Shown here: one piece after another, positions 10,066 through 36,158 of the stretch
Layout: each line of letters begins with the position of its first letter
Numbering within the stretch: the stretch's first letter is position 1
Assembly: GCA_014894395.1 (NCBI GenBank)
Contig: JADBLO010000094.1
Location: 346 to 64,345 of the forward strand
Origin: Thermoplasmata archaeon
GTDB lineage: Archaea > Thermoplasmatota > E2 > DHVEG-1
Length of the DNA stretch: 64,000 bases
Direction: 5' to 3'
Notes under the pieces: model-generated
Told to the model about the DNA's origin: nothing
The model's database searches: none
What the model saw: only the letters and a program-made list of their open reading frames with translations
Position numbers and translations under genes: made by a program

Positions 10066-10078
10066 GGAGAAAAGAACC

Positions 10079-13009: not shown

Positions 13010-14098
13010 TCATACATTTTTTTCCATAAATTCAACTATTTCCTTTAACTGATTAAAGTCTACATGAACTCCTTCTTTTTGTATGTTTTGAGCCTCTTCC
13101 ATTATTGGCTTCCAACTATGATTTATACGTGCTAAATGTATTTTTTGTTTTAACTTTTCAGGAACGAACTGCATTATTTGGTCACGTAAGGTTGCCACTG
13201 AAAAAAGAAGGCGCCTATTTTTACAGTAATCCAGGTATGCTTCAACAGCTAATTTAAAATCTTCTAGAACTATTTCTTTGTCGGCCCCATCAATCCTAGA
13301 TAATTCAGTTGTCATGCTCTCATAAAAAAGATTCACTTCTTTTCGATAACGAGGATCTTTTAGCCATGTGTCGAACTGTAATTTTCTGTTATGTTCTTTA
13401 AAATCTATTGGTTTATTTTCTTTGTTCCTCAGCCACATCAGATCTTCAATCACTATTGATTTTCCCTGATAGCATGTTGCTAACTCGAATATAAGTTCTT
13501 CAATGTATGGTGATGAAAATTTTTCTTTTGTGAGTATTGTCATGCTTTTTTTCCATACTTCAGAACGTTGCACTGCGTATATGGTCGAACAAACATATGG
13601 GTTCATGTGCTCAATCATTCTTTCTCTGGTTGTTCCTTCAAAACACCTATAGCCTTTCATTTCATTGTACATTGATGTTGCCATTATTCCGCTTTTTGTA
13701 GTATAAAATCCTATGCACCTTCCAATACATGCTACAATGTCTTTGTTATTTTTCAAATATTCCATACATTTTTCAAGTGAACTTGGAATAAAAAACTCAT
13801 CATCGCACAACATTGCTGTGTATGCTGTATCTATCAATTCCAATGATTTTCTTATCCGGTCATGGAGGTATTTTGGAATATGATAATAATGCACATTATC
13901 CCCAAGGCCTTTGAGGCCCTCAGTGTTTATTGGTGTACTCGTTCCGTCCAATACATATAGTGTCACTGGTGAATCAGACCAAAAATGCATCTGTCTTAGT
14001 GCATAGTGTTGACGATTGTATGTTGGCACAACAAGTGTAAGTTCCGAAAGATTTGGCATTTCGTTCCAGTCAATTTTAATCATTTCCTGCCTGCTCAT
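13010..14098 (-). CDS. Glycosyltransferase, GT2-like.
   Basis: N-terminal LTLVVPTYNRQHY (GT2 VVPTYN motif), followed by LCDDE. 362 aa. Confidence 0.6.
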   Translation of the reverse strand: MSRQEMIKIDWNEMPNLSELTLVVPTYNRQHYALRQMHFWSDSPVTLYVLDGTSTPINTEGLKGLGDNVHYYHIPKYLHDRIRKSLELIDTAYTAMLCDDEFFIPSSLEKCMEYLKNNKDIVACIGRCIGFYTTKSGIMATSMYNEMKGYRCFEGTTRERMIEHMNPYVCSTIYAVQRSEVWKKSMTILTKEKFSSPYIEELIFELATCYQGKSIVIEDLMWLRNKENKPIDFKEHNRKLQFDTWLKDPRYRKEVNLFYESMTTELSRIDGADKEIVLEDFKLAVEAYLDYCKNRRLLFSVATLRDQIMQFVPEKLKQKIHLARINHSWKPIMEEAQNIQKEGVHVDFNQLKEIVEFMEKNV

Positions 14099-14115
14099 TT
14101 ATTTCAATTTCATTT

Positions 14116-14877
14116 TTATTTCGTCTTTTTTAGATATCCATCTGGTGCAACTGTAATTAATAATTTGTTTTCTATATTTTTATCAATTTCGAATTCAGGA
14201 TGCGATTTCAAATATTCCCAAACTGCGGTTTTCGGATTATTTCCATTTCCCCAGGGCCGATCTGCAAATAAATTATCGTTCAAATCTTCAATGACAGTAT
14301 CAAATACCACACAATAACTTCCTTTTGAAACGAGTGGCCCATATGCATTCAGTTCAGCCAATACATGTGCATGCGTATGATTTGAATCCAAACAAACCAA
14401 AATATTGTTGTAGTTCTGTGCAAAATCATGAACCTGCTTGACTATGTTTTTGTCAATTGAAGATCCCTGCAGCATTTCTATTTTTTCTGATAGCGGATGT
14501 TTTTCTATCTCAACCCTGTTATGTGCTCTTATATCGATATCGATCCCGAGCACCTTGCCTCTTTTAATTGCTTTTGATGCTTCTAGCAATGTAATCATGG
14601 AAGCACTTAAGATCAGTGAACCTCCATGGGCAATACCCGTTTCAATAATGAGATCTGGCTTTACGGCCCAAATCAGTTCCTGCATTGCAATGATGTCTTG
14701 TGGATACTGAATTATCGGCCTGCCAAGCCATGAAAAATTATAGGTATACTTGGATACTGACGAAGCGTTCATGAAGTTATGGGCGCAGGATTTCATCTCT
14801 TCGTTTTGACCATTTGCATCAATTCTTTCTCTTACTTCTTTTTCAAAGTTCATGGTGATCCACCTGTATGCAATCAA
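14116..14877 (-). CDS. CmcI/cephalosporin-hydroxylase-family class I SAM-dependent methyltransferase, likely a sugar O-methyltransferase.
   Basis: LIIETGIAHGGSLIL and overall PF04989-like pattern. 253 aa. Confidence 0.75.
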   Translation of the reverse strand: MIAYRWITMNFEKEVRERIDANGQNEEMKSCAHNFMNASSVSKYTYNFSWLGRPIIQYPQDIIAMQELIWAVKPDLIIETGIAHGGSLILSASMITLLEASKAIKRGKVLGIDIDIRAHNRVEIEKHPLSEKIEMLQGSSIDKNIVKQVHDFAQNYNNILVCLDSNHTHAHVLAELNAYGPLVSKGSYCVVFDTVIEDLNDNLFADRPWGNGNNPKTAVWEYLKSHPEFEIDKNIENKLLITVAPDGYLKKTK

Positions 14878-14952
14878 ATTGGTTGTTCGATTGTACCACT
14901 TTGGAATGAAAATTGGTAATAATAACTCATGCTATACCTGATATGAGTAAAT

Positions 14953-14968
14953 ACTCATCTTTACCTTT
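14953..14968 (-). promoter_or_regulatory. Putative TATA-like box for the transcription unit starting at 14877.
   Basis: The reverse complement of cctttatatatctaaa contains atatataaag, about 80 nt upstream of the start codon, in a 122-nt intergenic gap. Confidence 0.2.
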
Positions 14969-14999
14969 ATATATCTAAATTTATCTCATTTTTATCCTG

Positions 15000-15908
15000 C
15001 TACTCTGATTGCTTCAATAATTCCGTTGTGTAGTTCCTTATTTTTTCCGGTGTCAACCCATATTTGTCAGCAAAATAATTCTTGTCTCCGACGGTTCTTT
15101 CAAACCCATCAGGAGGGGCAAGAGAATATAACTCCGTTGTATACAATTTTGATTCTACGAGAAACTGGCTCAGTATATTATAAAGTCCAGAACTGGCAAC
15201 ATGGTCCTCAACAACCAATATTTTAGGATATTGCAGGAAAACCCTAGACATTTCGTCCTTTTCAAATGGTTTAATTTTATTCATACAATAAACAGAAAAT
15301 GCACCATCTGTACCTGCAGCCTTCAGACAATTCTCCAGCATCGTCCCATGGGTTATAACCAGGAGACGGGAGCCGCGATTTTCGGTAACCATATGATTAA
15401 GACCTATTTGTTCAGAAGGGAGATCGAGACAACCTTTTCCAATCCTTACATAGGAAGGATTCTTATGCTTGAATATATCCTCAAAAACAATACGAACTGA
15501 TGCCATTGTGGAAGGGGAATAAATATTCATATAGGGAAATACTTTGATACAACCTATGTCGTCAATTACCTGATGTGTAGGACCAAGGCCGCCATTGTCA
15601 TAGCCTGTCGATGTCCCCACAAGAACTACAGGATAATTATGTAGACAGATGTCGTTTCTTATCTGTTCATAACATCTCTGAATCAGGAAATTTGAAATCG
15701 TGTAACAGACCGGACGAAATCCCACATTGCATAGTCCAGCACTTATTCCTATCATATTCTGCTCTGCAATACCGACATTAATAAACCGTTCTGGGAATTC
15801 TTTTTGGATCGGATCCACCAAACCAAGCCCCATATCGGCCACAACTAGGAAGATGGTCTTATCCTTGCACATCTGTTCAATGAGTTGTGTAAAAAATACG
15901 TTCCTCAT
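15000..15908 (-). CDS. Transketolase, C-terminal (pyrimidine-binding) subunit of a split transketolase.
   Basis: Pyr/TK-C domain motifs (GPTHQ, ISNF). The start overlaps the upstream TPP-subunit stop by 4 nt. Confidence 0.88.
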   Translation of the reverse strand: MRNVFFTQLIEQMCKDKTIFLVVADMGLGLVDPIQKEFPERFINVGIAEQNMIGISAGLCNVGFRPVCYTISNFLIQRCYEQIRNDICLHNYPVVLVGTSTGYDNGGLGPTHQVIDDIGCIKVFPYMNIYSPSTMASVRIVFEDIFKHKNPSYVRIGKGCLDLPSEQIGLNHMVTENRGSRLLVITHGTMLENCLKAAGTDGAFSVYCMNKIKPFEKDEMSRVFLQYPKILVVEDHVASSGLYNILSQFLVESKLYTTELYSLAPPDGFERTVGDKNYFADKYGLTPEKIRNYTTELLKQSE

Positions 15909-16756
15909 GTCTGCCGCCTCTTTGACAGTTCAATAGATGCTTTTTTATATTCTTCATCATTCGGTGGTCTGTAATGCCAGACATTATTATTTTCCATAAA
16001 TGAAACGCCTTTGCCTTTGATCGTATGGCAGATAATCGCGCCAGGGGTCTCTGATTCCTTCAGCCTTTGAATTGTTTGACAGATTTGTTCTTCATCATGT
16101 CCGTCAACCTCAAATGTTTTAAAACAAAAGCTTTCGAGTTTGTCTTTTAGGGAGTTAAATGAACAATAGGAATTGATGTCTTTGGTGCCGCCTAAACCAT
16201 TCATGTCTACCAGGACGCAAAGGTTATCAAGTTTCAGATGTCCTGCGAGAAGAAGTGCCTCCCAGTTAGACCCCTCATGGAGTTCTCCATCGCCGACAAT
16301 TACATATACTCTTGAATCAAGTCCTTTCGATTTCAAGCCGATTCCTATCCCAACCGCAACCGAAAGTCCATGTCCGAGAGCTCCCGTAGAGTGTTCTACA
16401 TATGGGACAAAGTGGCTCGCATGGCCACTTAGTATCGACCCGTTCTTATAGTATGTCATAAGCTCTTCATCGGATAACAGGCCTAAATGGTTTAATATAA
16501 CGTAAAGGGCTGCCGCCGAATGCCCTTTGCTGAGAATGACACGGTCTCTGTCGTCTCTTTTATCCTTTATTTTTTTGATATCAATACCCCTATACACTGC
16601 AGATAGAATTTCAATAACCGAAAAAGAGGATCCAATATGAGACGCCTTGGATTGGTAAATAATATCCAATACTCGTTTTCGTAGTAGATCTGTCTTCTGC
16701 GTCTCTTTTCGGCTGTCAATACTACTTCGTCCCATTGTTAATTCCCTTTCCTTCAT
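15905..16756 (-). CDS. Transketolase, N-terminal thiamine-diphosphate-binding subunit.
   Basis: GDGELHEGSNWEALLLAGHLKLDNLCVLVDMNG TPP-binding motif, plus HSTGALGHGLS. Confidence 0.88.
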   Translation of the reverse strand: MKERELTMGRSSIDSRKETQKTDLLRKRVLDIIYQSKASHIGSSFSVIEILSAVYRGIDIKKIKDKRDDRDRVILSKGHSAAALYVILNHLGLLSDEELMTYYKNGSILSGHASHFVPYVEHSTGALGHGLSVAVGIGIGLKSKGLDSRVYVIVGDGELHEGSNWEALLLAGHLKLDNLCVLVDMNGLGGTKDINSYCSFNSLKDKLESFCFKTFEVDGHDEEQICQTIQRLKESETPGAIICHTIKGKGVSFMENNNVWHYRPPNDEEYKKASIELSKRRQT

Positions 16757-17544
16757 CCTGTAATATCTTTCTTCTTCCTGGAGGGATGGTCGATTTTTAC
16801 AATACCAGTTCTGGCCTTAAGCCCCGATTTACCGTTATCCGTAATGATTAAAGGATAAAGTTTCTTCTCAACACAGAAACTGTAAAAGCCATTGGACCAA
16901 TCGAGGTCGTCAGCCATAATTAGGGCATTTGAATTCAATTTTTCCCATACTAACGTCATTTCTTGTTTTATAAAAGCAAACGAATGGTCACTATCATGGT
17001 TATACAGATCAATCTTCTCATTCAACCTTGGAATCTCTTCAAGACTATTTCCCCGTATGAGTGTCCACCGCTCTTTCTGGGCAGGATGAACGATAAAACC
17101 AATATCCAGTCCTTGGGGTATGTCCTCGGAATCACCCACTAAATAATGCCTCGACATTTTGTCATCCGAATTTCTTGGAAGATCAATGGAAATCAACTTA
17201 CCAAAATGATTCCTTCTTAATGCATTCAGAATAAAACAGGTTGTTCCTCCATAAAACACTCCGGTCTCAAGGCAGACGGAAGGTCGATTGAGTCTGACGA
17301 GAATGTATAAGATAATCCTTTGTATCGCAAACCAATCTACTGATTCCAGGTTGCTATGTCTGAATATACCCTTTTGATACGTGAGCCTTACCTTTTGAAT
17401 CTGTTCATTTATCTCGTCCAAAAACTGTTGATCTCCCAATAATTCCTTGTACAGCTGATCTATCTTTGTAAACTCTACATTGAGATAATCAGCTAAGAGT
17501 TCGAGACTCATTGTATTAAGCGAACGGCATAATGCTGGGTCCAT
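16753..17544 (-). CDS. Class I SAM-dependent O-methyltransferase (TylF/Methyltransf_24-like). The probable true start is Met12 at 17511.
   Basis: SVCLETGVFYGGTTCFI and LIMADDLDW motifs. An ATG at 17509-17511 sits 4 nt after the stop of the small upstream ORF. Confidence 0.7.
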   Translation of the reverse strand: MDPALCRSLNTMSLELLADYLNVEFTKIDQLYKELLGDQQFLDEINEQIQKVRLTYQKGIFRHSNLESVDWFAIQRIILYILVRLNRPSVCLETGVFYGGTTCFILNALRRNHFGKLISIDLPRNSDDKMSRHYLVGDSEDIPQGLDIGFIVHPAQKERWTLIRGNSLEEIPRLNEKIDLYNHDSDHSFAFIKQEMTLVWEKLNSNALIMADDLDWSNGFYSFCVEKKLYPLIITDNGKSGLKARTGIVKIDHPSRKKKDITG

Positions 17545-17719
17545 TTTTTGTTTCCCTCTTTACAAGAAATTCTCTTCTTTCCCTTAATCTCTCTTCGTTG
17601 CCTATGCGAACGCCCTTCGCTGTCCACACAGCCTGGTTAAAAGGGCCGTAAGCATTTACTATCTCAATCTGGTCGGCTGAGATTCTCTCATCCACTTTGC
17701 TAGAGAGGTGTACCATCAT
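17516..17719 (-). CDS. Small hypothetical protein (67 aa).
   Basis: ATGATGA overlap with the stop of the upstream epimerase gene, giving translational-coupling geometry. The ORF ends 4 nt before the Met12 start of the downstream methyltransferase. No recognisable domain. Confidence 0.3.
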   Translation of the reverse strand: MMVHLSSKVDERISADQIEIVNAYGPFNQAVWTAKGVRIGNEERLRERREFLVKRETKNGPSIMPFA

Positions 17720-18627
17720 TGGTCACCCAGAAAAGCATTCAAGTCACGTAAGCCCTGCTCGAGGTTGATTTTCGGCCCCCAATGGAGAAGCTCTTTTGCT
17801 TTCTTGTTTGAGACTGGTCTGATGCTTATGTTATTAGGAGTTGTCTCAACAATCTCGGGATTCTTATTCAAGATTTTCTTTGAAGTCTCAATTACTTCAC
17901 CGAGTCTTAAAAGCCTGTTGCCCTCAAGGTTTATTATATTGAAGCCAGGCAAGCCAATTGACTTAACAATGCCCTCAACGATGTCAGAAACATTGATAAA
18001 GCACCTTCCGGTCCGAAGGGATCCGACAGTAATCTTGTCCTGCGTCCTGACCTGGTTGAAAAGAGACTCAACAGCTGACCAATTGTCTTTCCTGCTGCCA
18101 TAGATTATGCCGAATCTCAGGATAGCCACAGGGCAGAAGCCGTGCTTTGAATTCTGGCGGAGATTTCCCTCTGAGACTAGCTTTGAAAGGGCATACTCAG
18201 AGGTATGGTTGGCGATATTGATAATTGAATCCTCTGTCTTTTCCTCCCCTTCAACAAAATTGTCATAAACCCATTCTGTTGATGCGAAAATAAACTGTTT
18301 GACATTCCTCTGCTCTGCTGCTTGCATCAAGTTCAGCGTTCCCATCACATTGATAGTGAAACATTCATATGCCTTGTTCTTGCAATCAGAGTCCCTTGAC
18401 AAGGCTGCGAGGTGGATGATTGCATCAGCGCCGTCTGGAATGAGCTCTGCAATCTCCGGCTTGTTTATGTCAGCTGAGAAATATTCTGACCGCTGTACCT
18501 TTGGCAAATCCACACAGACAGTCTTGTAGCCAAGCGAATGACATTTTTTCACAAGTTCCTTGCCAACAAATCCTTCTGAGCCGGTTATGAAAATTGTTTT
18601 CGGACGATGTGCCTTGTTTTCTTGCAT
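17716..18627 (-). CDS. NAD-dependent sugar epimerase/dehydratase/reductase (extended SDR).
   Basis: TIFITGSEGFVGKELV Rossmann motif plus a YxxxK region. The first ATG gives MQENKAH; the track start at 18639 is a TTG extension. Confidence 0.8.
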   Translation of the reverse strand: MQENKAHRPKTIFITGSEGFVGKELVKKCHSLGYKTVCVDLPKVQRSEYFSADINKPEIAELIPDGADAIIHLAALSRDSDCKNKAYECFTINVMGTLNLMQAAEQRNVKQFIFASTEWVYDNFVEGEEKTEDSIINIANHTSEYALSKLVSEGNLRQNSKHGFCPVAILRFGIIYGSRKDNWSAVESLFNQVRTQDKITVGSLRTGRCFINVSDIVEGIVKSIGLPGFNIINLEGNRLLRLGEVIETSKKILNKNPEIVETTPNNISIRPVSNKKAKELLHWGPKINLEQGLRDLNAFLGDQ

Positions 18628-18808
18628 TTTTATCACCAACAGCTGAATGTATTTTATTGGCCTTTAATCACATTTCATCTTCTGTCAACTTTCTGAGGTT
18701 TCCTTTGGGATTTGATGTAACCATGAGACGCGTATTTTTTTCATCAACCCTGAATTCAAGAGTGATTTTTATGAAATCCTTAATGGCGTCAAGTGTATTG
18801 GCATGACC

Positions 18809-19714
18809 TTAATGTATTTTTCTGAAGTATTCAATAGTTTTTTCAATCCCTTTTTCAATGCTAAACTTTGGTTTCCATCCTACATCTGCTTTAATCCTTG
18901 AAATATCTGCCCAGAAATCCATGAGGGGAGAATCCGCAGGTTTTCCACTTTCTGAAACATACCTTTCGTTTAAATTATATAAGCGATAGACCGTGTTAAT
19001 GATATGTAGAATCTCCGTGGAATACCCTGAACCAATATTGTATACTTCTCCCTTCATCTCCTTAGTGATTAGCAGGGAAATCGCTTCGGCCACATCTTCG
19101 ACGTATACGAAATCATTTCGAGAATGAGGGGTTTTAATGTTCGGATGATCACCTGAACGAATAGAGGTAATAATATGCGGGATAAGAGAATGACCTTTCT
19201 GCTCTGGCCCATATACGTAAAACAGTCGTGTCCAGATAAATTCCATGTGATTTTCCCGAGCGATTTCTCGCCCCATTAAATGTAATGCATGTTTTGCCGC
19301 GGTGAACGCGCTCGATGGCTTTACCACTGAATCTTCATCAAGTTTGCCAGATTTCTGTCCGTATTCCCAACAACTTCCAGTACAAAGAACACGTTTGCAA
19401 CCAATCTCAGCTAACATTACAATCAAATTCAAACCATAGATCAGATTTTTCATGCTGGTTTTATAATCATAGTTTGGAATGTCCCCCCATGCCATGTGAA
19501 TAGTTACATCAGGTTGAAATTTTTTAACCACATCTTTCCACGCATCGATATTTGAAAGATCTCCCACGAATGCCGTTATTTTTTTATGATAATCAGTAAA
19601 AGACGGTTTTTCAGATTCTTGAATCAATAAAAGTAAATCGTGTTCTTCCTCCATCAACTTTCTTACTACATGAGTACCAATGAAACCTGTTCCTCCAGTA
19701 ACGAAAATTCTCAT
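18809..19714 (-). CDS. NAD-dependent sugar epimerase/reductase (extended SDR).
   Basis: MRIFVTGGTGFIGTHVV. 301 aa. Overlaps the upstream cupin-gene stop by 4 nt. Confidence 0.8.
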   Translation of the reverse strand: MRIFVTGGTGFIGTHVVRKLMEEEHDLLLLIQESEKPSFTDYHKKITAFVGDLSNIDAWKDVVKKFQPDVTIHMAWGDIPNYDYKTSMKNLIYGLNLIVMLAEIGCKRVLCTGSCWEYGQKSGKLDEDSVVKPSSAFTAAKHALHLMGREIARENHMEFIWTRLFYVYGPEQKGHSLIPHIITSIRSGDHPNIKTPHSRNDFVYVEDVAEAISLLITKEMKGEVYNIGSGYSTEILHIINTVYRLYNLNERYVSESGKPADSPLMDFWADISRIKADVGWKPKFSIEKGIEKTIEYFRKIH

Positions 19715-20253
19715 TCTATTTCCAAACCCCTAAATTTTTCGACAAACTCTTTGAAGCTTTGCGCTTTCGAATCCTTCTCCGATAAGAGGGGATTAGACAC
19801 CGGCCATTTTATTCCAAGATCAGAGTCATTCCATTTAATAGTACCCTGACTTGTAGGATTATAGTAATTACTCATTTTGTACAGTAACGTGCAATCATTG
19901 GTTAAGGTGCACATGCCAAGTGCAAGACCTTTTGGAACGTACAGCATGTTTTTATTCTGTTCAGAGAGAATCGCGCTATCCCAGCAACCAAACATTGAGG
20001 AGTTTTTCCGTATATCAACAAACACCATAAAAATCTCCCCATGGACTGCTCTCACGAGTTTTGTTTCCGTGTTCGGTGGAAATTGAAAATGAAGCCCTCG
20101 TATCGTCCCTTTTTGCTTTGAATAGGAATGATTCTCTTGAACCCACCGCTGTTCTAAACCATGGTCTTGAAATAACGTATCATCATAGGTTCTCATAAAA
20201 AATCCCCTATGATCTTCGTGAACCTCTAATTCGATTTCAAAGACTCCCTTCAT
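19711..20253 (-). CDS. NDP-4-keto-6-deoxy-sugar 3,5-epimerase (RmlC-like cupin).
   Basis: MKGVFEIELEVHEDHRGFFMRTY is the typical RmlC N-terminus. The probable start is the Met at 20253, preceded by AAAGAAAG; the track start at 20289 is an extension. Confidence 0.85.
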   Translation of the reverse strand: MKGVFEIELEVHEDHRGFFMRTYDDTLFQDHGLEQRWVQENHSYSKQKGTIRGLHFQFPPNTETKLVRAVHGEIFMVFVDIRKNSSMFGCWDSAILSEQNKNMLYVPKGLALGMCTLTNDCTLLYKMSNYYNPTSQGTIKWNDSDLGIKWPVSNPLLSEKDSKAQSFKEFVEKFRGLEIE

Positions 20254-21511
20254 TTTTCTTTCTTTTATCTGCATTGTAGTCACAAACACTCATCATTGCT
20301 GGGGTATTCGGTAATGGGATGATACAGGTACCCGTATAATTAAACCTCTTTTTTAAAATCGTGATGATTTCGTCTGTGAAATTCCACGCTAAAATAAATA
20401 CACACTTCGGGTTTTTACTCATGACCTGTTCTGGGCTGTCAATAGGGATATGGGTTCCTGCGGTGTACCGTTTATGTTTCAAGGGATTCTGATCAGCGAT
20501 GAGAGAAATATATTGCGTGTCAATCCCACAATAATTCAGTAAGGTGGAACTTCGTGCTGATGCGCCATACCCAACAAGGGGTCCACTTGCATCAGTTACT
20601 TCTTTCATCATCTTTAATAATTGTTCACGATGAACATGAACTCGCCGTGAAAAATCTTGCCAGCTACTCAAATCATTAAGTTTCTTTTTCTGTTCGGTAT
20701 CTCGATATGATTGAACGGTGTGCGCCTCTGCTTCCTTGTTTTTTTTCACATATAAAATCAATGATCCACCACTAATCGGACTCTCATTGATATCAACCAC
20801 AAATAGTCCGAATCGATGCAACAACGCTTCAACACTTTTCAAGGTAAAATAACATAAATGCTCATGATAGATCGAATCATAATGCAACTCATCATAGATT
20901 CTTCCTGCATAGTGGACCTCCAACGCAAGTAAACCATCTGTTTCTAAAACTCGGGAAAGCCCGTCTACAAAATCATGAAGATGCGCCACGTGCGGAAGAA
21001 CATTCCGTGCGATCACCACTTTCGCCGGACCATGCTGCTTCAGTATTTCCTCTGCGACTTGAACTCCAAAAAAGCTGCATTTCGTTGGAATACCCTGTGC
21101 AATAGCTATCTTGACAATGTTCTCTGCAGGATCAACTCCAAGAACCAGATACTTGTTTTTCACAAAGGGCTGTAGAAATGTCCCGTCGTTACTCGCAACT
21201 TCGAGGACATATCCTTTATTCAAATCGTGAACGCGAGTGACAATTTCTCGATAAAACATCTGTGCATGGTCTTGAGCTGTATGAGACGTACCGGTAACCC
21301 AAACGTAATTTGAAAATAACTTCTTTGGATCGACCGTGTAATTTAACTGAACCAGATTACATTCTGGACACCAACTTAATGAAAGAGGATACAACGGCTC
21401 TTTTTCGGTTGCAGTTTTCAGTAGAGAATTGGCTGGGGGTTGGTTCCCAAGGTCGAGAAATTCGACGATATGTTTGTTTTCACAGACTCGGCAACATTTG
21501 ATGTGTGTCAT
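20237..21511 (-). CDS. NDP-hexose C-methyltransferase (TylCIII-like) with an N-terminal zinc ribbon.
   Basis: CRVCENKHIVEFLDLGNQPPANSLL, where the C4 ribbon is completed by CPECN, plus a class I methyltransferase core. 424 aa. Confidence 0.8.
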   Translation of the reverse strand: MTHIKCCRVCENKHIVEFLDLGNQPPANSLLKTATEKEPLYPLSLSWCPECNLVQLNYTVDPKKLFSNYVWVTGTSHTAQDHAQMFYREIVTRVHDLNKGYVLEVASNDGTFLQPFVKNKYLVLGVDPAENIVKIAIAQGIPTKCSFFGVQVAEEILKQHGPAKVVIARNVLPHVAHLHDFVDGLSRVLETDGLLALEVHYAGRIYDELHYDSIYHEHLCYFTLKSVEALLHRFGLFVVDINESPISGGSLILYVKKNKEAEAHTVQSYRDTEQKKKLNDLSSWQDFSRRVHVHREQLLKMMKEVTDASGPLVGYGASARSSTLLNYCGIDTQYISLIADQNPLKHKRYTAGTHIPIDSPEQVMSKNPKCVFILAWNFTDEIITILKKRFNYTGTCIIPLPNTPAMMSVCDYNADKRKKNEGSL

Positions 21512-21540
21512 GCGTATGTCCTCAAGGTATTGTTTTATCT

Positions 21541-23367
21541 TTAAGTGAAATCGGATTCGTTCATCGTATAAATTGCATCAGCATAATCTTTTGTTTTTTT
21601 AATGATAGGTACTTCGTCTATTTCTCGAGACTTAATGATTTTTTCGGTCTGTTTTGTAGAGCATTTCTTGTAGTCAATATAAAACTCTTTGAGTCGCTGA
21701 ATTCGCACCGTGTCGTTGATATCGACGTAAATATGGTAATCAGAGAGGTTTCGGACGTCTTCGATATCTAATGAGACAATTCCATCGATGATACCGATGC
21801 CATGCTCTTCGATATATAATGGGGTAGAATTTTTCTTTTGGGTGACCTGTCGTGTTTGTGAGTCATACACCGGAGGGTAGATTTTCTCCCCGTGTTTAAG
21901 GCGGGTGATTGTCTCCGATATTTTTGTATATTGATACCGCTCACGCACTGTTTCATTTCCTTTTCGTTCGTTGAGTCCAAGCAGCCAATTATCAAGAGGA
22001 ATAATAGTACTTGGGATTTTTTTCCCTTTGAGATCTTCTTGTATTTTTTTTGCAAGGATTGTTTTCCCGGACCTGCTGCACCCTGCGATTGAGACGATAA
22101 ATCTTGTTTTGTCTGACTTCATATAGGTTTCAAGTAAGGATTCAAATAAAGTATAATACGTATCAATTCGTTTGTTGGCTGTTGATCCAAGGAGTGAATG
22201 AACCACCTGTAGCAGATTTTTCTCTGGTGTCACTAGTATGGTCTTGACACCAGCAGCATTCCCTGCTTGCAGATCACGTTCATCATCACCGATAAAAACT
22301 GTTTTTGAAAGATCTAATTGATGATCCCGGGCAGCTTGGAAGAACATTCCGGGTTTTGGTTTCCTACATTCACAGTTTTCATCCCACCCATGAGGACAAT
22401 AGTAGATGCCATCGATCTTCGCCTTATTGTTGTGTAATTCTCTCTGAAGATGTTCATGGATACTGCGGAGATCCGACTCAGTCATTACACCCCGAGCAAT
22501 CCCTGCTTGGTTCGTGATAAGATAGACGTGATATCCATTTTTTGTGAGAAGTTCCAATGCTTCTATGGCCCCTGGTAGGAATTCGAATTCATTCCACTTC
22601 TTCACATACTCTGCTTTAGGTGGTTTTTTATTAATGACGCCATCCCTATCCAAGAAAATCACTTTCTTTGGCTGGAGGAATCTTTCTGTCAGTGGCAAAC
22701 GCTCTAATGACCCAATGCTATAATATCTATAATCCACCAAATATCCGGATAACTGATGATTTTCGATGAGTTTTGGAATGATGACATTCTGAAAAGAAAA
22801 ATTCTCACCAGGCATCCATTCTGTTATCTTCTTACTGAGAATGAAAAAACCGACATCTACCCCGTTGAGATCTTTCGCTTGCCTTGTTCGATCGTAGGTT
22901 ATGACATATCCTTTCTCATCCACAAACACATTATTTTTCGTTATTTTGTCTTTGTTCGTATATATCGTAACGCTTGCCATAGTCTTTTGTTTTTCATGGA
23001 ATTCCACAAGTTTCTTTAGATCCAACGGGAGATAATTATCGCAATACGTCAAGAGGAAAAACTCCTGGAGGAGCTCCTCTGCTTTTTTTATTCGTGTTCC
23101 GGTCTCATCTGAAAGATCACTTATCGAATATTTTATTTTCACTCCGAATCTTGAACCATCTCCGAAATACTCCGTGATTTTTTCAGGAAGATACCCGAGC
23201 AAGAGCACGATTTCACAGATTCCGTTTTCTTTCAACAGGCCTATGAGATATTCGAGAAATGGTTTCCCATTCATTAAAATCATTGGCTTTGGTACTGTAT
23301 CGGTCAGCGGTTGTAGTCTTGTTCCTCGTCCTCCAGCAAGGATTACAGCTTGTTTAACTGAAAGCAT
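21541..23367 (-). CDS. Tri-domain fusion: heptose-1-P nucleotidyltransferase (HddC-like), D,D-heptose-1,7-bisphosphate phosphatase (GmhB-like HAD), and a uridine-kinase/phosphoribulokinase-family P-loop kinase domain.
   Basis: N-terminus MLSVKQAVILAGGRGTRLQPLTD is the NTP-transferase domain. The middle has VIFLDRDGVIN...CECRKPKPGMF...FIGDDERD, the GmhB HAD motifs with a Cys/zinc loop. The C-terminus has IVSIAGCSRSGKTILAKKI...IPLDNW...KHGEKIYPPVYD...GIIDGIVSL...YHIYVDINDTVRIQRLKEF...KDYADAIY, which aligns motif-for-motif with Udk/PRK. Confidence 0.8.
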   Translation of the reverse strand: MLSVKQAVILAGGRGTRLQPLTDTVPKPMILMNGKPFLEYLIGLLKENGICEIVLLLGYLPEKITEYFGDGSRFGVKIKYSISDLSDETGTRIKKAEELLQEFFLLTYCDNYLPLDLKKLVEFHEKQKTMASVTIYTNKDKITKNNVFVDEKGYVITYDRTRQAKDLNGVDVGFFILSKKITEWMPGENFSFQNVIIPKLIENHQLSGYLVDYRYYSIGSLERLPLTERFLQPKKVIFLDRDGVINKKPPKAEYVKKWNEFEFLPGAIEALELLTKNGYHVYLITNQAGIARGVMTESDLRSIHEHLQRELHNNKAKIDGIYYCPHGWDENCECRKPKPGMFFQAARDHQLDLSKTVFIGDDERDLQAGNAAGVKTILVTPEKNLLQVVHSLLGSTANKRIDTYYTLFESLLETYMKSDKTRFIVSIAGCSRSGKTILAKKIQEDLKGKKIPSTIIPLDNWLLGLNERKGNETVRERYQYTKISETITRLKHGEKIYPPVYDSQTRQVTQKKNSTPLYIEEHGIGIIDGIVSLDIEDVRNLSDYHIYVDINDTVRIQRLKEFYIDYKKCSTKQTEKIIKSREIDEVPIIKKTKDYADAIYTMNESDFT

Positions 23368-23373
23368 GTGTTC

Positions 23374-24423
23374 TCACGTCATCCAGTACATCTTCTTGTT
23401 TACCTTTTTTTCATTCATCAGGTATTTCAATTGCAATGTGCGATTGCATTGTCTTCCCCGAAACATAGCTTCCGTGAAATGTATTTCATCAAAAAAAGAA
23501 ACAATCTCATTTCCGCCCCGAAAGAGATCCCACTCTGGTTTGTAATACTCTTTTAATACGGAAAGTATCTTTACAAACGAAACTCGGTATGTTCTGGCAT
23601 CTGATCCATGTTCGCCCGTATAAATTATAGTTGATCCCTTCACAACATTTTGTGCAGCTTCTGCGAGTTGTTTTACTGTAAAATTACCATCATTAATACC
23701 AACATTAAATGATTCATTTGAGATTAGTTTTTCTGGTGCTTCAATACCTGCAATAAATGCATTTGATACATCCCTGATATGGACGACGGGTCGCCATGGT
23801 GACCCATCGCTTTTTACTTCTATTTTCCCTGTTGTATAAGCACTAGCGATAAAGTTATTGTAAACGATGTCACATCGCAACCTTGGGCTTACCCCGAAAA
23901 CGGTCGATGGGCGAAAACATACAACGGTAAAATCATCATCCCCTAGCTTCTTCAATTCACATTCCGCATCCCATTTCGTTTTTGCGTACATCGTAATAGG
24001 ATTCTTTTCACTTGTATCCTCATCTAGTTCTTCATCTGTCTTTGCCACCCCGTACATACTTTGAGATGAAGAATATACAAAACGCTTAATTCCAATTTCT
24101 TTTGCCAATGTAGCCAATCTGATCGTTGCAACATAATTGATATCATATGTTAATTTTTGATTGAGTTCGCCCAATGGATCATTAGACAGAGCTGCAAGAT
24201 GAATGATGGCATCAATACCCTTCAGATCTGCTTTTGAGACCTTTCGGATATCTTTGTTAATTTGCTGTATATTAGTATCTAACTTCTTCAATTCGCAACC
24301 TTTGTAATAATCCGTGTCAAAACCTTTTACGGTATAGCCTCGATCTAAAAGGAGTTTTGTCAATATGCATCCGATATATCCTCTGTTCCCAGTTACAAGA
24401 ATATTCACAATATCCCTCCACAT
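23374..24423 (-). CDS. NAD-dependent sugar epimerase/dehydratase (extended SDR), a candidate GDP-heptose-modifying enzyme.
   Basis: NILVTGNRGYIGCIL Rossmann motif, SSSQSMYG, YAKTK. 349 aa. Confidence 0.8.
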   Translation of the reverse strand: MWRDIVNILVTGNRGYIGCILTKLLLDRGYTVKGFDTDYYKGCELKKLDTNIQQINKDIRKVSKADLKGIDAIIHLAALSNDPLGELNQKLTYDINYVATIRLATLAKEIGIKRFVYSSSQSMYGVAKTDEELDEDTSEKNPITMYAKTKWDAECELKKLGDDDFTVVCFRPSTVFGVSPRLRCDIVYNNFIASAYTTGKIEVKSDGSPWRPVVHIRDVSNAFIAGIEAPEKLISNESFNVGINDGNFTVKQLAEAAQNVVKGSTIIYTGEHGSDARTYRVSFVKILSVLKEYYKPEWDLFRGGNEIVSFFDEIHFTEAMFRGRQCNRTLQLKYLMNEKKVNKKMYWMT

Positions 24424-24428
24424 ACATT

Positions 24429-25022
24429 TTATTTCTTTTGTCTTTGTTGCTCTTCTCTGATTAATGATGTTAAAAGATGCTCAAGAAGCAGGTGAATGTC
24501 CTCTACGCGCTGCATATAATTACTCGGTGCATGGATGTTCTCTTGGGCGCATCTGAGTAATGCGCCTCCATCATATCCAGAAATACCTATAGTTATCCCT
24601 CTGTTTTCGTTTGCATATTTTATGGCTTTAACCACATTCGCCGAATTCCCACTGCCACTAATACCGATTATGACATCGCCAGGTTCCATTAAATTCTTCA
24701 ATTGTTCGACAAAAATATCATCATAGCTTGCATCATTTGCCCATGCCAGCATGGTTGGAATATTATCAGTGAGTGCAATCGCTTTAAACCTGGGAAATCC
24801 ATCGACAATGGTTCCTTTTGAAAGATCACTTACAAAATGAGATGCTGTTGAGGCACTACCCCCATTTCCCATTATAAAAATCGTTTTTCGTTCAGTTCGT
24901 GCTTTCAACAAAATAGTCGCAATAGTGTCCATTTTTTTTACAAGATCTCGCTCCATTACATTTAATATTGTGTGTATTTCCTTTAAATAATCCTTCGTAA
25001 ATTTTTCCCTGAAGTTATCCAT
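24429..25022 (-). CDS. gmhA: Sedoheptulose-7-phosphate isomerase (phosphoheptose isomerase, SIS domain).
   Basis: IFIMGNGGSASTASHFVSDLSK SIS motif. 197 aa. Confidence 0.85.
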   Translation of the reverse strand: MDNFREKFTKDYLKEIHTILNVMERDLVKKMDTIATILLKARTERKTIFIMGNGGSASTASHFVSDLSKGTIVDGFPRFKAIALTDNIPTMLAWANDASYDDIFVEQLKNLMEPGDVIIGISGSGNSANVVKAIKYANENRGITIGISGYDGGALLRCAQENIHAPSNYMQRVEDIHLLLEHLLTSLIREEQQRQKK

Positions 25023-25024
25023 AC

Positions 25025-26005
25025 TTAATCACTCACGTAGATAATTCTGCTTCCAGATGCCTCGAATGCAAATGTTACATCTTTCAAATCATGAAGTGCT
25101 TTTCTTACAAAATCTTGCTTTTCTTTTTCACAGTAGAACAACAAAAAACCGCCTCCTCCAGAACCCAAAATTTTCCCCCCGATTGCTCCAGCTTTTCGGG
25201 CTTTTTCATAATATGAATTGATAATAGGATTTGAGATTTTACTTGCGAGTTGTTGTTTGTACATCCATCCTTGATGAAGTATTTCTCCGAATCTCGTGAG
25301 ATCGTTGTTTCTTAATGCCTCTTGAAGTTCGCGAACCTGCTCAACCATTTTATCATAAATATGGAGTTTGTCTTCTGTTTTTTTAATTTGTTCCGTTAAA
25401 ATATCTCCTGATGTGATCTGTTTTCCCATATAAAACATAAGTAAATTTTCTTTTAATTTTTCTTTAATTTCTTTCTTGAAAATAATCGGATTCACTATGA
25501 CACTTTCATCTGCATTAAATTGTATATAGTTAAATCCCCCATATGCTGCTGCATATTGATCCTGTTTTCCGATTGGGTGTCCTAGTATGTCGATTTCAAT
25601 TCTACATGATTCCTGAGCCAATGTTTCAGCTGAGACATGTTCCCCTTTAAATGCATGAAGTGCGTGTAACGTTCCTACAACAATACTACTCGAAGCACCT
25701 AATCCGGATCCCTCCTGCGCTGGTAGAAGATCTGACATGTAAACGATTTCCAGTCCCTTCGTAATACCAGTCATTTTTAATGCATCCCGAACAAGATTAT
25801 GCTCGATCTCATCGACAGTTTTAACATATTCTATTTTTGAGTAGGCTACACGAATATTATCTGTGAATCTTTTATTCACGGTGATATATACATATTTGTT
25901 AATTGCAGTACTGATCACCGCACCGTGTCCATGTTGATAATATGCACGAATATCTGATCCACCGCCTACAAAACTCATTCGTAATGGTGTTCTTGAGATA
26001 ATCAT
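25025..26005 (-). CDS. hddA: GHMP-family sugar kinase, HddA-like D-glycero-alpha-D-manno-heptose-7-phosphate kinase.
   Basis: ISRTPLRMSFVGGGSDI N-terminus, the GHMP ATP motif PAQEGSGLGASSS, and a GGGGFLLF C-terminal motif. Confidence 0.8.
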   Translation of the reverse strand: MIISRTPLRMSFVGGGSDIRAYYQHGHGAVISTAINKYVYITVNKRFTDNIRVAYSKIEYVKTVDEIEHNLVRDALKMTGITKGLEIVYMSDLLPAQEGSGLGASSSIVVGTLHALHAFKGEHVSAETLAQESCRIEIDILGHPIGKQDQYAAAYGGFNYIQFNADESVIVNPIIFKKEIKEKLKENLLMFYMGKQITSGDILTEQIKKTEDKLHIYDKMVEQVRELQEALRNNDLTRFGEILHQGWMYKQQLASKISNPIINSYYEKARKAGAIGGKILGSGGGGFLLFYCEKEKQDFVRKALHDLKDVTFAFEASGSRIIYVSD

Positions 26006-28498: not shown

Positions 28499-28617
28499 CC
28501 TTTTTCTGTTTGTTTTCTCGAGAGGGGATACCTTCAGCCTATGATCAGATGGTGCCTGTGTCGGTTTTGTTGTAAGGACATATCTTATATGTCTTCAGCT
28601 AGGGAGACCACAGGACA

Positions 28618-30197: not shown

Positions 30198-30208
30198 ATG
30201 CTTTCAAC

Positions 30209-32409: not shown

Positions 32410-32415
32410 GTTGAG

Positions 32416-35010: not shown

Positions 35011-35031
35011 GATTGTTCACGAGTATCCGTA

Positions 35032-36093: not shown

Positions 36094-36158
36094 TGATTAT
36101 TCCTCCATCGGATAGAAACGAGCCACTTATCTGCCGTTTTGTAGTGGCAAATCAGAAA

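What the first reader, a model, noticed from the sequence alone, without database searches (positions are those of the whole stretch)
21541..26005. Complete GDP-D-glycero-alpha-D-manno-heptose pathway in an archaeal surface-glycan cluster
GmhA (24429..25022), the HddA-like GHMP kinase (25025..26005), and GmhB + HddC (in the fusion) are contiguous and co-directional with an SDR (23374..24423). Heptose pathways are characteristic of bacterial LPS, capsules and S-layer glycans, and are rarely described in archaea. The gene set implies heptose-containing, and further modified, glycans on this organism's surface.
Basis: partly seen in the sequence, partly recalled or inferred. Interest (0 to 1): 0.6.

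Follow-up and report, generated by a model that had tools for sequence, protein, structure and literature searches.

The report
Variant heptose pathway, archaeal glycan cluster
Four adjacent genes in this archaeal genome fragment do encode the enzyme types needed to make a nucleotide-activated seven-carbon sugar for the cell surface. They belong to a widespread, unstudied variant of the known bacterial pathway, with an extra kinase and altered active sites, so the exact sugar is still unknown.

Summary
ORFs 25025-26005 (GHMP kinase), 24429-25022 (SIS isomerase), 23374-24423 (SDR) and 21541-23367 (fusion) lie 2-6 nt apart on the minus strand. Each matches a heptose-pathway family best.

- The fusion has three domains, not two: nucleotidyltransferase, GmhB phosphatase and a uridine-kinase/PRK-like P-loop kinase.
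- The isomerase carries Asp and Glu where canonical GmhA has its conserved zinc ligands Glu68 and Gln175. Q175E alone inactivates Burkholderia GmhA.
- The transferase lacks HddC's guanine-binding EXXPLGTGGA motif. "GDP" and "manno" are therefore unproven.
- The SDR is closest to 6VO6, which I recall as Cj1427, the Campylobacter GDP-heptose C4-dehydrogenase.

The genes that follow are a C-methyltransferase, an RmlC-like epimerase and further SDRs. In eight further loci the gene set kinase, SIS, SDR, transferase-GmhB, kinase and epimerase recurs; six continue with the second SDR before the contig ends. The same gene types occur in Thermoplasmatales, Chloroflexota, DPANN archaea and other bacteria at 55-80% identity.

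This is a horizontally shared cassette for a modified heptose. Heptose is already documented in Thermoplasma glycans, so heptose in an archaeon is not new. The cassette variant is uncharacterised.

The parts
25025..26005 (-). GHMP sugar kinase, HddA-like (heptose-7-phosphate 1-kinase type), 326 aa
   Evidence: It has PF00288 and PF08544. HddA model NF049969 scores 2.1e-44 and 152 bits (cut-off 600), against fucokinase at 77 bits. PDB matches are 3K85 at 2e-46, WcbL at 5e-39 and 4N3O at 3e-33. The PLR and GKQDQ motifs are conserved with 3K85. Orthologues of 42-87% identity lie in the same cassette in 11 loci.
24429..25022 (-). SIS-domain isomerase of a GmhA-related subfamily with altered metal and catalytic residues, 197 aa
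   Evidence: It has SIS_2 and SIS domains. The best families are GmhA models, at 116 and 110 bits, below cut-offs of 276 and 209. The best PDB match is GmhA 1X92. Its signature is HF..D and (V/I)ED.H where canonical GmhA has HF..E and IQE.H. This signature is conserved in all cassette orthologues. The ligand positions are defined in PMC5705639.
23374..24423 (-). Extended SDR closest to the solved structure 6VO6/6VO8 (recalled as C. jejuni Cj1427, the NDP-heptose C4-dehydrogenase), 349 aa
   Evidence: It matches PF01370 at 1.1e-40. The best solved relative is 6VO6/6VO8 at 1.5e-34, and the next best scores only 6e-21. YxxxK is present. Orthologues of 41-84% identity lie next to the fusion gene in nine loci.
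22672..23367 (-). Sugar-1-phosphate nucleotidyltransferase domain of the fusion (residues 1-232)
   Evidence: It matches PF00483 at 3.8e-21. The GGRGTRLQPLT motif is present. The best solved relatives are 8X7S, a UTP-glucose-1-P uridylyltransferase (1e-26), then Yersinia HddC 6JQ8 (3e-20). The HddC model scores 97.9 bits against a cut-off of 300. The guanine-binding motif is replaced by YSISDLSDETGTRIKKA.
22183..22671 (-). GmhB-type HAD-IIIA heptose-1,7-bisphosphate 7-phosphatase domain (residues 233-395)
   Evidence: NF006506 scores 184.1 bits, above its cut-off of 178. PDB matches are GmhB structures 3L8H, 4PNH and 2GMW. The DRDGV, TNQ and GDDERD motifs and the CPHx6CxC loop are conserved across the family.
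21541..22182 (-). Uridine-kinase/phosphoribulokinase-like P-loop kinase domain (residues 396-608); substrate unknown
   Evidence: It matches PF00485 at 6.6e-10. Stand-alone homologues of about 206 aa and 49-58% identity are encoded directly after the two-domain gene in L011 and L013. The AlphaFold2 model has pLDDT 85.5. The best Foldseek matches are uridine kinases, PRK and 3C8U. HAD-kinase and transferase-HAD-kinase fusions recur.
20237..21511 (-). TylC3/TcaB9-type sugar C-methyltransferase
   Evidence: It has PF08421, PF13489 and PF08484. Orthologues of 66-67% identity occupy the same position in L007, L008 and L012.
19711..20289 (-). RmlC-like NDP-4-keto-sugar 3,5-epimerase
   Evidence: TIGR01221 scores 195.7 bits, above its cut-off of 155.75. 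PDB matches to dTDP-type RmlC reach 7e-44, against about 1e-17 for C. jejuni GDP-heptose epimerases. Orthologues of 56-66% identity follow the fusion or kinase gene in L001 and L007-L013.
18809..19714 (-). Extended SDR that partners the epimerase; presumed C4 reductase, but with Phe in place of the catalytic Tyr
   Evidence: It matches PF01370 at 4.3e-44. Orthologues of 48-54% identity follow the epimerase in L007-L012. All six members examined read (A/S/P)F..AK where YxxxK is expected.
17716..18639 (-). Second extended SDR with an intact YxxxK; candidate ketoreductase
   Evidence: It matches PF01370 at 1.2e-31. A 61% identical orthologue is in the Chloroflexota cassette L009.
16753..17544 (-). 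Class I methyltransferase (Methyltransf_24)
   Evidence: It matches PF13578 at 7e-17.
15000..16756 (-). Split transketolase-like ThDP enzyme (N subunit 15905-16756, C subunit 15000-15908)
   Evidence: The N subunit has PF00456; the C subunit has PF02779 and PF02780. The N subunit scores 236 bits against a transketolase model. The C subunit matches DXS and transketolase about equally. Orthologues are in L005.
14116..14877 (-). CmcI/rhamnosyl-type O-methyltransferase
   Evidence: It matches PF04989 at 7e-98. A 43% identical orthologue is in L009.
13010..14098 (-). Glycosyltransferase (GT2-like, TIGR04440 domain) at the end of the co-directional block
   Evidence: It has PF00535. TIGR04440 scores 124.8 bits, above its cut-off of 70.

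Best explanation
The region is the core of a roughly 13-kb, co-directional cassette (13010-26005) that builds a nucleotide-activated, modified heptose for a surface glycan.

Inferred route:
1. The SIS isomerase converts a ketose phosphate, most likely sedoheptulose-7-phosphate, into a heptose-7-phosphate.
2. The GHMP kinase phosphorylates O-1, giving the alpha anomer as HddA does.
3. The GmhB domain removes the 7-phosphate.
4. The fused nucleotidyltransferase domain makes the NDP-heptose.
5. The SDR closest to 6VO6 (recalled as Cj1427) oxidises C4.
6. The 4-keto intermediate is C-methylated, epimerised by the RmlC-like enzyme and reduced. It is then O-methylated and transferred.

What is shown: gene order, family assignments, catalytic motifs of the kinase and phosphatase, conserved synteny, and cross-domain distribution. 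What is inferred: every chemical step, the substrate, the nucleotide (GDP is not established), the C2 configuration of the product, and the role of the fused uridine-kinase-like domain. The enzymes form a paralogous set, distinct from canonical GmhA and HddC. The cassette is shared between archaea and bacteria by horizontal transfer.
For: Family and structure matches support all four core activities. GmhB passes its curated cut-off.

The SDR's closest solved relative by a wide margin is 6VO6/6VO8. I recall this entry as Cj1427, whose C4-dehydrogenase function and downstream epimerase and reductase logic are described in PMC10680097.

The gene order kinase, SIS, SDR, transferase-GmhB, kinase, optional C-methyltransferase, RmlC-like is conserved in L001 and L007-L013; the second SDR follows it in L007-L012. 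A reduced set occurs in L003-L005.

Genes from 26005 down to 18809 are tightly packed or overlapping.

Locus L012 carries both a canonical set and the cassette set. Its canonical SIS scores 192 bits against GmhA, and its canonical transferase scores best against HddC and has the REEKPLGTGGA motif. So the cassette set is a separate lineage.

Over the transferase and phosphatase domains, the window is 66-69% identical to Babeliales, Fusobacteriaceae, Chloroflexota and Woesearchaeota proteins. It is 66% identical to another Thermoplasmatales protein. Kinase homologues in Methanoperedens, Fusobacteriaceae and Omnitrophota are 69-75% identical.
Against: Three of the four core proteins fall far below the curated equivalog cut-offs: HddA 152/600, GmhA 116/276, HddC 98/300.

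The SIS protein has Asp and Glu at the positions of GmhA Glu68 and Gln175, and Q175E inactivates Burkholderia GmhA.

The transferase lacks the Glu80 motif that binds guanine in HddC.

The RmlC-like enzyme resembles dTDP-type epimerases more than the GDP-heptose ones.

The SDR that follows the epimerase lacks the catalytic Tyr.

The textbook route has no step for the conserved extra kinase. No experiment exists for any member of this cassette in the literature I could search.
Confidence: 0.7

Rival explanations
1. Strictly canonical reading. [quoted passage not shown]
For: The best-scoring families are GmhA, HddA and GmhB. The best solved relatives are heptose enzymes. The SDR's closest solved relative is 6VO6, recalled as Cj1427, which acts on the GDP-manno-heptose substrate. 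Among curated models, a mannose-1-P guanylyltransferase scores highest for the transferase domain, at 109 bits.
Against: Glu68 to Asp and Gln175 to Glu fall at ligands described as completely conserved among GmhA orthologues, and Q175E is inactive. HddC's EXXPLGTGGA motif is absent, although it is present in the canonical transferase of L012. One organism (L012) keeps both sets, which argues against redundancy. The conserved extra kinase is unexplained.
Confidence: 0.3
2. Variant-product reading. The altered isomerase gives another heptose-7-phosphate isomer, for example the C2 epimer D-glycero-D-gluco. The transferase uses a nucleotide other than GTP, and the SDR acts at C4. The cassette would then yield a heptose such as D-glycero-D-galacto-heptose or derivatives. 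The uridine-kinase-like protein would be a fifth required enzyme.
For: The active-site substitutions are conserved within the subfamily. The guanine motif is missing. The GmhA homologue HygP is a precedent, since it leads to altro-heptose. D-glycero-D-galacto-heptose occurs in Thermoplasma acidophilum N-glycans and, per the references of that review and my recollection of what those papers report, in Eubacterium saburreum. No biosynthetic route for it appeared in the searched library. Carriers of the variant SIS include Thermoplasmata and a Butyrivibrio.
Against: No direct evidence bears on stereochemistry or nucleotide. The correlation with galacto-heptose organisms is anecdotal, and I could not check the T. 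acidophilum genome. In this window the SDR is followed by an epimerase and reductase set, which fits the Campylobacter logic starting from manno-heptose.
Confidence: 0.2
3. Not a heptose pathway. The same four enzyme types act on another ketose phosphate, for example fructose-6-P to a hexose-1-P, or an octulose phosphate made by the transketolase-like enzyme.
For: All scores except GmhB's are well below the equivalog cut-offs. The isomerase active site is altered. A transketolase-like pair sits in the operon.
Against: The GmhB domain passes a heptose-bisphosphate phosphatase cut-off. The kinase is far closer to heptose kinases than to any hexose kinase. The SDR's closest solved relative is 6VO6, recalled as a heptose-specific enzyme.
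Confidence: 0.06
4. The cluster is real, but the contig is a mis-binned bacterial sequence, so there is no archaeal heptose pathway here.
For: The window has no rRNA, tRNA or universal marker. The cassette proteins are 66-69% identical to bacterial ones. The taxonomic label comes from MAG binning only.
Against: Two archaeal-type GlmU genes pass TIGR03992 in the flank. The tri-domain cassette lies on contigs from three other assemblies labelled Thermoplasmatales (L001, L007, L008). Related cassettes occur in Woesearchaeota, Aenigmatarchaeota, Altiarchaeales and Methanoperedens records. Base composition of the four genes falls within the range of the window.
Confidence: 0.07

Closest known systems
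Campylobacter jejuni capsular heptose system (GmhA Cj1424, HddA Cj1425, GmhB Cj1152, HddC Cj1423, then C4-dehydrogenase Cj1427, C3/C5-epimerase Cj1430, C4-reductase Cj1428)
   Same: It uses the same enzyme types in the same logical order: isomerase, GHMP kinase, HAD phosphatase, nucleotidyltransferase, then C4 oxidation, cupin epimerase and SDR reduction. The window's SDR is closest to 6VO6, which I recall as Cj1427.
   Different: Here the transferase and phosphatase are fused, with an additional uridine-kinase-like domain. The isomerase has Asp/Glu instead of Glu/Gln at two zinc ligands. The transferase lacks the guanine motif. The epimerase is closer to dTDP-type RmlC. The partner SDR lacks the catalytic Tyr. 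A C-methyltransferase and a ThDP enzyme are added. The host is an archaeon.
[quoted passage not shown] 2001, cited) and the Burkholderia pseudomallei capsule enzymes (WcbL kinase, GmhA)
   Same: It is the four-step alpha-anomer route using a GHMP kinase. WcbL is a close solved relative of the window kinase (5e-39). The product serves a surface glycan.
   Different: Those enzymes are separate proteins with the canonical GmhA zinc site. No extra kinase is involved. The product is used as manno-heptose or 6-deoxy-manno-heptose.
ADP-heptose (HldE-type, beta-anomer) genes in archaea: acid-mine Thermoplasmatales relatives (Yelton 2013) and the cross-kingdom heptose enzymes of Tang et al. 2024
   Same: Both are nucleotide-heptose biosynthesis genes in archaea, including relatives of Thermoplasmata, linked to surface glycosylation.
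   Different: Those use the ribokinase-type kinase/adenylyltransferase HldE (K03272) and give beta-linked ADP-, CDP- or UDP-heptose. The window uses a GHMP kinase and an RmlA/GMPP-type transferase.
HygP, the GmhA homologue of hygromycin B biosynthesis
   Same: It is a GmhA-family isomerase acting on sedoheptulose-7-phosphate. [quoted passage not shown]
   Different: It comes from an actinomycete antibiotic pathway. Its active-site residues were not compared here, and it has no relation to the cassette context.
Uridine-cytidine kinase / phosphoribulokinase family (PF00485)
   Same: The fold and P-loop match. The best structural matches are T. thermophilus uridine kinase, human UCK2, PRK and the putative fructose-transport-system kinase 3C8U.
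   Different: Scores lie far below the uridine kinase cut-offs (58 against 180). The family has its own signature (SLDNWLLGL.ERKG.ETVRERFQY, YDP.TR). It is always encoded in, or fused to, a heptose cassette. Its substrate is unknown.

Membership tests
GmhA (sedoheptulose-7-phosphate isomerase) | SIS_2-type domain of about 190 aa, with the closest curated and solved relatives being GmhA | tested here: met
   PF13580 scores 6.6e-18. The four best NCBIfam hits are GmhA models, followed by DiaA, with no KpsF hit. The best PDB match is 1X92 at 1.6e-28.
GmhA (sedoheptulose-7-phosphate isomerase) | Score at or above a curated equivalog cut-off | tested here: not met
   Scores are 116.1 against 276 (NF010546) and 109.6 against 209.45 (TIGR00441). 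A canonical GmhA in L012 scores 192 and 185.
GmhA (sedoheptulose-7-phosphate isomerase) | Zinc and catalytic residues His64, Glu68, Gln175 and His183 (B. pseudomallei numbering), stated to be completely conserved among orthologues | tested here: not met
   Both histidines are kept. Glu68 is Asp, Gln175 is Glu and Asp61 is Thr. This holds in all cassette orthologues. The residue roles, and the inactivity of the Q175E mutant, come from PMC5705639.
GmhA (sedoheptulose-7-phosphate isomerase) | Converts sedoheptulose-7-P to D-glycero-D-manno-heptose-7-P | not testable with these tools
   This needs an enzyme assay with product NMR.
[quoted passage not shown] | GHMP N and C domains, and closer to heptose kinases than to other GHMP sugar kinases | tested here: met
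   Both PF00288 and PF08544 match. HddA scores 152 bits, against fucokinase 77, mevalonate kinase 73 and galactokinase 54. PDB heptose kinases score 2e-46 to 3e-33, against fucokinase at 1e-13.
[quoted passage not shown] | Score at or above the curated equivalog cut-off | tested here: not met
   The score is 152.3 against a cut-off of 600 (NF049969).
[quoted passage not shown] | Catalytic Arg and Asp (WcbL R13 and D163) | tested here: inconclusive
   The PLR and GKQDQ motifs are conserved with 3K85. Mapping them onto WcbL R13 and D163 is by motif only, not by an alignment to WcbL.
GmhB (heptose-1,7-bisphosphate 7-phosphatase, HAD-IIIA) | Curated cut-off, HAD motifs and the Cys/His zinc loop | tested here: met
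   NF006506 scores 184.1, at or above its cut-off of 178. The DRDGV, TNQ, GDDERD and CPHx6CxC motifs are conserved. PDB matches are GmhB structures at 1.5e-31.
GmhB (heptose-1,7-bisphosphate 7-phosphatase, HAD-IIIA) | Preference for the alpha or beta anomer | not testable with these tools
   The beta-named model passes, at 184 against 178. The alpha-named model does not, at 142 against 250. The models do not discriminate the anomers reliably.
HddC (heptose-1-phosphate guanylyltransferase) | RmlA/GMPP-type NTP_transferase fold with the GGxGTRL motif | tested here: met
   PF00483 scores 3.8e-21. Yersinia HddC 6JQ8 scores 3e-20.
HddC (heptose-1-phosphate guanylyltransferase) | Best-scoring family, at or above the equivalog cut-off | tested here: not met
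   The score is 97.9 against 300. It is outscored by the mannose-1-P guanylyltransferase, MurU and archaeal GlmU models. The best PDB match is a UTP-glucose-1-P uridylyltransferase.
HddC (heptose-1-phosphate guanylyltransferase) | Guanine-binding Glu80 within the EXXPLGTGGA motif | tested here: not met
   The aligned segment is YSISDLSDETGTRIKKA, with Ser at the Glu80 position. The same deviation is conserved in the cassette family. The motif is present in the canonical transferase of L012. The motif is defined in PMC6981941.
Cj1427-type NDP-heptose C4-dehydrogenase | Extended SDR with YxxxK, and Cj1427 as the closest characterised relative | tested here: met
   6VO6/6VO8 scores 1.5e-34, and the next structure scores 6e-21. 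The Tyr and Lys are present. That 6VO6 is Cj1427 rests on my memory and on the deposited name matching the Cj1427c annotation. The structure paper was not held.
Cj1427-type NDP-heptose C4-dehydrogenase | Tightly bound NADH recycled by alpha-ketoglutarate, and release of the 4-keto product | not testable with these tools
   This is a biochemical property described in PMC10680097.
Uridine kinase / phosphoribulokinase (PF00485) | P-loop kinase fold of this family | tested here: met
   PF00485 scores 6.6e-10. Foldseek matches to uridine kinases and PRK have probability 1.00 and TM 0.6-0.75.
Uridine kinase / phosphoribulokinase (PF00485) | Equivalog-level match to uridine kinase or PRK | tested here: not met
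   Uridine kinase scores 58.6 against 180, and PRK scores 48.5 against 236. The family has its own conserved signature.

The most novel reading that the evidence does not exclude
The cassette is a distinct, uncharacterised five-activity pathway. A zinc-site-variant isomerase sets a different heptose configuration. A transferase without the guanine motif attaches a nucleotide other than GDP. A dedicated uridine-kinase-like enzyme is required. The result would be a heptose such as D-glycero-D-galacto-heptose or C-methyl-branched derivatives. It would supply the missing biosynthetic route for the heptose seen in Thermoplasma N-glycans and some Firmicutes polysaccharides. The cassette would have spread between archaea and bacteria.
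Probability: 0.2. Interest if true: 0.65.

Novelty: new variant of a known kind. Interest (0 to 1): 0.45.

Why it matters
Heptose in archaeal glycans is already documented, so the presence of a heptose pathway in a Thermoplasmata genome is not a surprise in itself.

What matters is that these genes are not the textbook enzymes. They define a conserved cassette found in many uncultured archaea and bacteria, with three distinguishing features:
- an isomerase carrying a substitution that kills canonical GmhA;
- a transferase without the known guanine determinant;
- an extra kinase of unknown substrate.

Public annotation pipelines label these proteins as the standard heptose enzymes, so metabolic reconstructions may assign the wrong sugar. 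Working out the product would add a new branch to nucleotide-heptose biochemistry. It could also explain how unusual heptoses in archaeal N-glycans are made. Finally, the cassette gives a clear example of surface-glycan genes exchanged between domains.

Tried and rejected
- **RNA genes:** tRNA and Rfam scans of the window found nothing, so there is no RNA marker for taxonomy.
- **Promoters and terminators:** the sigma-70 promoter and terminator scan of 12.5-27.5 kb showed no enrichment over shuffles (36 found against 45 expected). It was not informative for an archaeon.
- **Composition test for recent transfer:** the four genes have GC 0.36-0.40 and GC3 0.28-0.39. This lies inside the window's range of 0.33-0.48. 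The window is almost all glycan genes, so there is no core-genome baseline.
- **Cluster-member look-up:** looking up ten NCBI-derived homologues returned no taxon names.
- **Bootstrapped NJ tree of the transferase-phosphatase region:** the backbone is poorly resolved. Only 24 of 200 replicates place the three Thermoplasmata sequences in a clade free of named bacteria. Neither the direction of transfer nor the overall topology can be stated.
- **Cj1427 structure paper:** it is not held, so the identity of 6VO6 and the nucleotide-contact residues could not be checked.
- **Literature searches:** I found no paper on D-glycero-D-galacto-heptose biosynthesis and none on HddA-type pathways in archaea.
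- **Kinase-domain structure:** the prediction and fold search confirmed the fold but gave no substrate.
- **KpsF-like or fucokinase identities:** I considered these for the SIS protein and the kinase and rejected them on scores.
- **A separate dTDP-rhamnose pathway:** I considered whether the RmlC-like gene belongs to one. This is unlikely because no RmlA, RmlB or RmlD equivalogs are in the operon, and the epimerase travels with the heptose cassette in eight other loci.

Full report
**Observation.**
They are separated by 2, 5 and 6 nt.

- The first is a GHMP kinase. Its best curated family is the heptose-7-phosphate kinase HddA (2.1e-44, against fucokinase at 4.8e-22). Its best solved relatives are heptose kinases: 3K85 at 2e-46, WcbL at 5e-39 and 4N3O at 3e-33.
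- The second is an SIS_2 protein. Its four best curated matches are GmhA models, followed by DiaA, and its best solved relatives are GmhA structures. No KpsF match appears.
- The fourth contains an NTP_transferase domain (residues 1-230) and a GmhB-type HAD-IIIA phosphatase (residues 234-385). The phosphatase passes the NF006506 cut-off, at 184.1 against 178.

**Source.**
The fusion and the kinase are identical to proteins that NCBI lists from a 'Thermoplasmata archaeon' MAG, on a 74,951-bp contig. The window holds no rRNA, tRNA or universal marker.

Three observations are consistent with an archaeal host, but the assignment still rests on binning:
- Two archaeal-type GlmU genes and GlmS lie in the flank.
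- Contigs from three other assemblies labelled Thermoplasmatales carry the same tri-domain cassette (L001, L007, L008).
- Base composition of the four genes is unremarkable for the window.

**The genes are part of a larger conserved cassette.**
Downstream on the same strand, tightly packed or overlapping, lie the following genes:

| Coordinates | Gene |
|---|---|
| 20237-21511 | TylC3/TcaB9-type C-methyltransferase |
| 19711-20289 | RmlC-like 3,5-epimerase (passes TIGR01221) |
| 18809-19714 | SDR |
| 17716-18639 | SDR |
| 16753-17544 | methyltransferase |
| 15000-16756 | split transketolase-like enzyme |
| 14116-14877 | CmcI-type O-methyltransferase |
| 13010-14098 | glycosyltransferase |

Comparison with 13 loci fetched from genomes and metagenomes shows a recurring order. 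It runs kinase, SIS, SDR, transferase-GmhB, uridine-kinase-like protein, an optional C-methyltransferase, and RmlC-like epimerase. This is seen in L001 and L007-L013 at 44-88% identity, and in L007-L012 a second SDR follows the epimerase. A reduced set occurs in an Aenigmatarchaeota, a Butyrivibrio and a Brennerbacteria genome.

The SDR at 23374-24423 matches the solved structure 6VO6/6VO8 far better than any other (1.5e-34 against 6e-21). From memory, and from the deposited name, this entry is Cj1427. [quoted passage not shown] That oxidation lets a cupin epimerase and a C4 reductase make other heptose isomers. The window therefore encodes the logic of the Campylobacter capsular heptose-modification system, extended by C- and O-methylation.

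**Why the product name is not established.**
Three of the four core proteins fall far below curated equivalog cut-offs: HddA 152/600, GmhA 116/276 and HddC 98/300. The differences sit at functional positions.

*The isomerase.* In Burkholderia GmhA the active-site zinc is held by His64, Glu68, Gln175 and His183. These are described as completely conserved among orthologues, and the Q175E mutant is inactive. The window's SIS protein and every cassette orthologue keep both histidines. They have Asp for Glu68, Glu for Gln175 and Thr for Asp61. Canonical GmhA sequences in the same alignment keep Glu and Gln.

*The transferase.* Yersinia HddC binds guanine through Glu80 of an EXXPLGTGGA motif. The window's transferase aligns YSISDLSDETGTRIKKA there, with Ser at the Glu80 position. 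The whole cassette family shares this deviation. HddC is not its best-scoring family, and its best solved relative is a UTP-dependent enzyme.

*Two sets in one organism.* Locus L012 carries both a canonical set and the cassette set. In its canonical set the SIS protein scores 192 bits against GmhA. Its stand-alone transferase scores best against HddC and contains REEKPLGTGGA. The cassette enzymes are therefore a separate paralogous lineage, not drifted copies.

*Precedent.* The GmhA homologue HygP leads to altro-heptose rather than manno-heptose.

Use of a GHMP kinase still argues for an alpha-linked sugar-1-phosphate. This follows from established knowledge of HddA-type kinases.

**The extra kinase.**
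The C-terminal domain has stand-alone homologues of about 206 aa at 49-58% identity. In L011 and L013 these are encoded immediately after, and overlapping, the two-domain transferase-GmhB gene.

A profile search of 1.84 billion representatives found 103 members at E<=1e-30. Most are stand-alone. Some are recurrent HAD-kinase (about 390 aa) or transferase-HAD-kinase (600-640 aa) fusions.

The AlphaFold2 model (pLDDT 85.5) matches uridine kinases, phosphoribulokinase and a putative fructose-transport-system kinase. The P-loop and many charged residues are invariant, and the family has its own signature. It is therefore probably an active small-molecule kinase and a genuine member of the cassette. 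The textbook route has no step for it, and I could not assign a substrate.

**Horizontal transfer.**
Over the transferase and phosphatase domains the window is:
- 66-69% identical to proteins from Babeliales, Fusobacteriaceae, Chloroflexota and Woesearchaeota;
- 66% identical to another Thermoplasmatales protein;
- 80% identical to its closest Thermoplasmatales relative.

Kinase homologues in Methanoperedens, Fusobacteriaceae and Omnitrophota are 69-75% identical. In a bootstrapped NJ tree a Woesearchaeota sequence groups with Fusobacteriaceae-type sequences (97%). The backbone is unresolved, so exchange between domains is clear but its direction is not. Composition gives no sign of recent arrival.

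**Comparison with what is known.**
- Thermoplasma acidophilum N-glycans contain D-glycero-D-galacto-heptose.
- ADP-heptose (HldE-type) genes were noted in acid-mine Thermoplasmatales relatives.
- Functional beta-heptose enzymes are reported across archaea.

Heptose in an archaeon of this lineage is therefore not new. I found no paper describing an HddA-type route in archaea, none describing this cassette, and none on the biosynthesis of D-glycero-D-galacto-heptose.

A speculative reading is that the variant isomerase sets another C2 configuration and the cassette supplies such unusual heptoses. I give this about 0.2.

**Verdict.**
This is an HddA-type nucleotide-heptose cassette with downstream C4-keto tailoring, shared horizontally between archaea and bacteria (confidence 0.7). 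[quoted passage not shown] It is a new variant of a known kind, of moderate interest.

Noticed in passing
window 15000-16756 (minus strand): A split transketolase-like ThDP enzyme sits inside the heptose operon. L005 has an orthologous pair. The Chloroflexota cassette L009 has a different, PDH-E1-like split ThDP pair at the same relative position. The pair could supply sedoheptulose-7-P or add a two-carbon branch to a keto-sugar.
   Followed up: partly
window 18809-19714 (minus strand); homologues in L007, L009-L012: The SDR that always follows the RmlC-like epimerase has Phe in place of the catalytic Tyr of the YxxxK motif in all six members examined. It keeps the GGTGFIG nucleotide-binding motif and a conserved GSCWEYG segment.
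   Followed up: partly
window 26295-37745 (minus strand): A full nonulosonic-acid (legionaminic/pseudaminic-type) gene set lies directly upstream. It comprises a PseB/FnlA-like dehydratase, a DegT aminotransferase, a WbuX amidotransferase and an acetyltransferase. It also has a hydrolysing 2-epimerase, two NeuB paralogues, an SDR, a GFO oxidoreductase, a CMP-sugar synthetase and a glycerophosphotransferase-like protein. L010 shows the same neighbourhood.
   Followed up: partly
L012:1-3662 versus L012:4141-13369: One metagenomic organism carries two heptose gene sets side by side. The canonical set has a GHMP kinase, an HddC-like transferase with the guanine motif, and GmhA with the Glu/Gln ligands. 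The other is the variant cassette. This implies two different heptose products.
   Followed up: partly
L014 (IMGVR_UViG_3300017814_000113) and L015-L020: Contigs classed as viral in IMG/VR carry a GHMP heptose-type kinase next to an SIS isomerase. L014 also has a transferase, a GmhB and an SDR. Whether these are true viruses or mis-classified cellular fragments was not checked.
   Followed up: no
window 1969-6688 and 60286-63801 (minus strand): Three very large proteins (781, 782 and 1171 aa) with DUF2341 domains flank the glycan genes; the two at 1969-6688 also have LamG-like domains. They are possible secreted or surface glycoprotein targets.
   Followed up: no
window 47779-49234 (minus strand): A 205-aa ORF matches only the N-terminal part of an extended SDR, and short overlapping ORFs lie next to it. 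This may be a disrupted epimerase/dehydratase gene.
   Followed up: no
window 7047-11284 (plus strand): Two paralogous archaeal-type GlmU-like sugar-1-phosphate nucleotidyltransferase/acetyltransferases flank GlmS. The more divergent copy (7047-8249) has unusually high GC3 (0.56) for the window.
   Followed up: no
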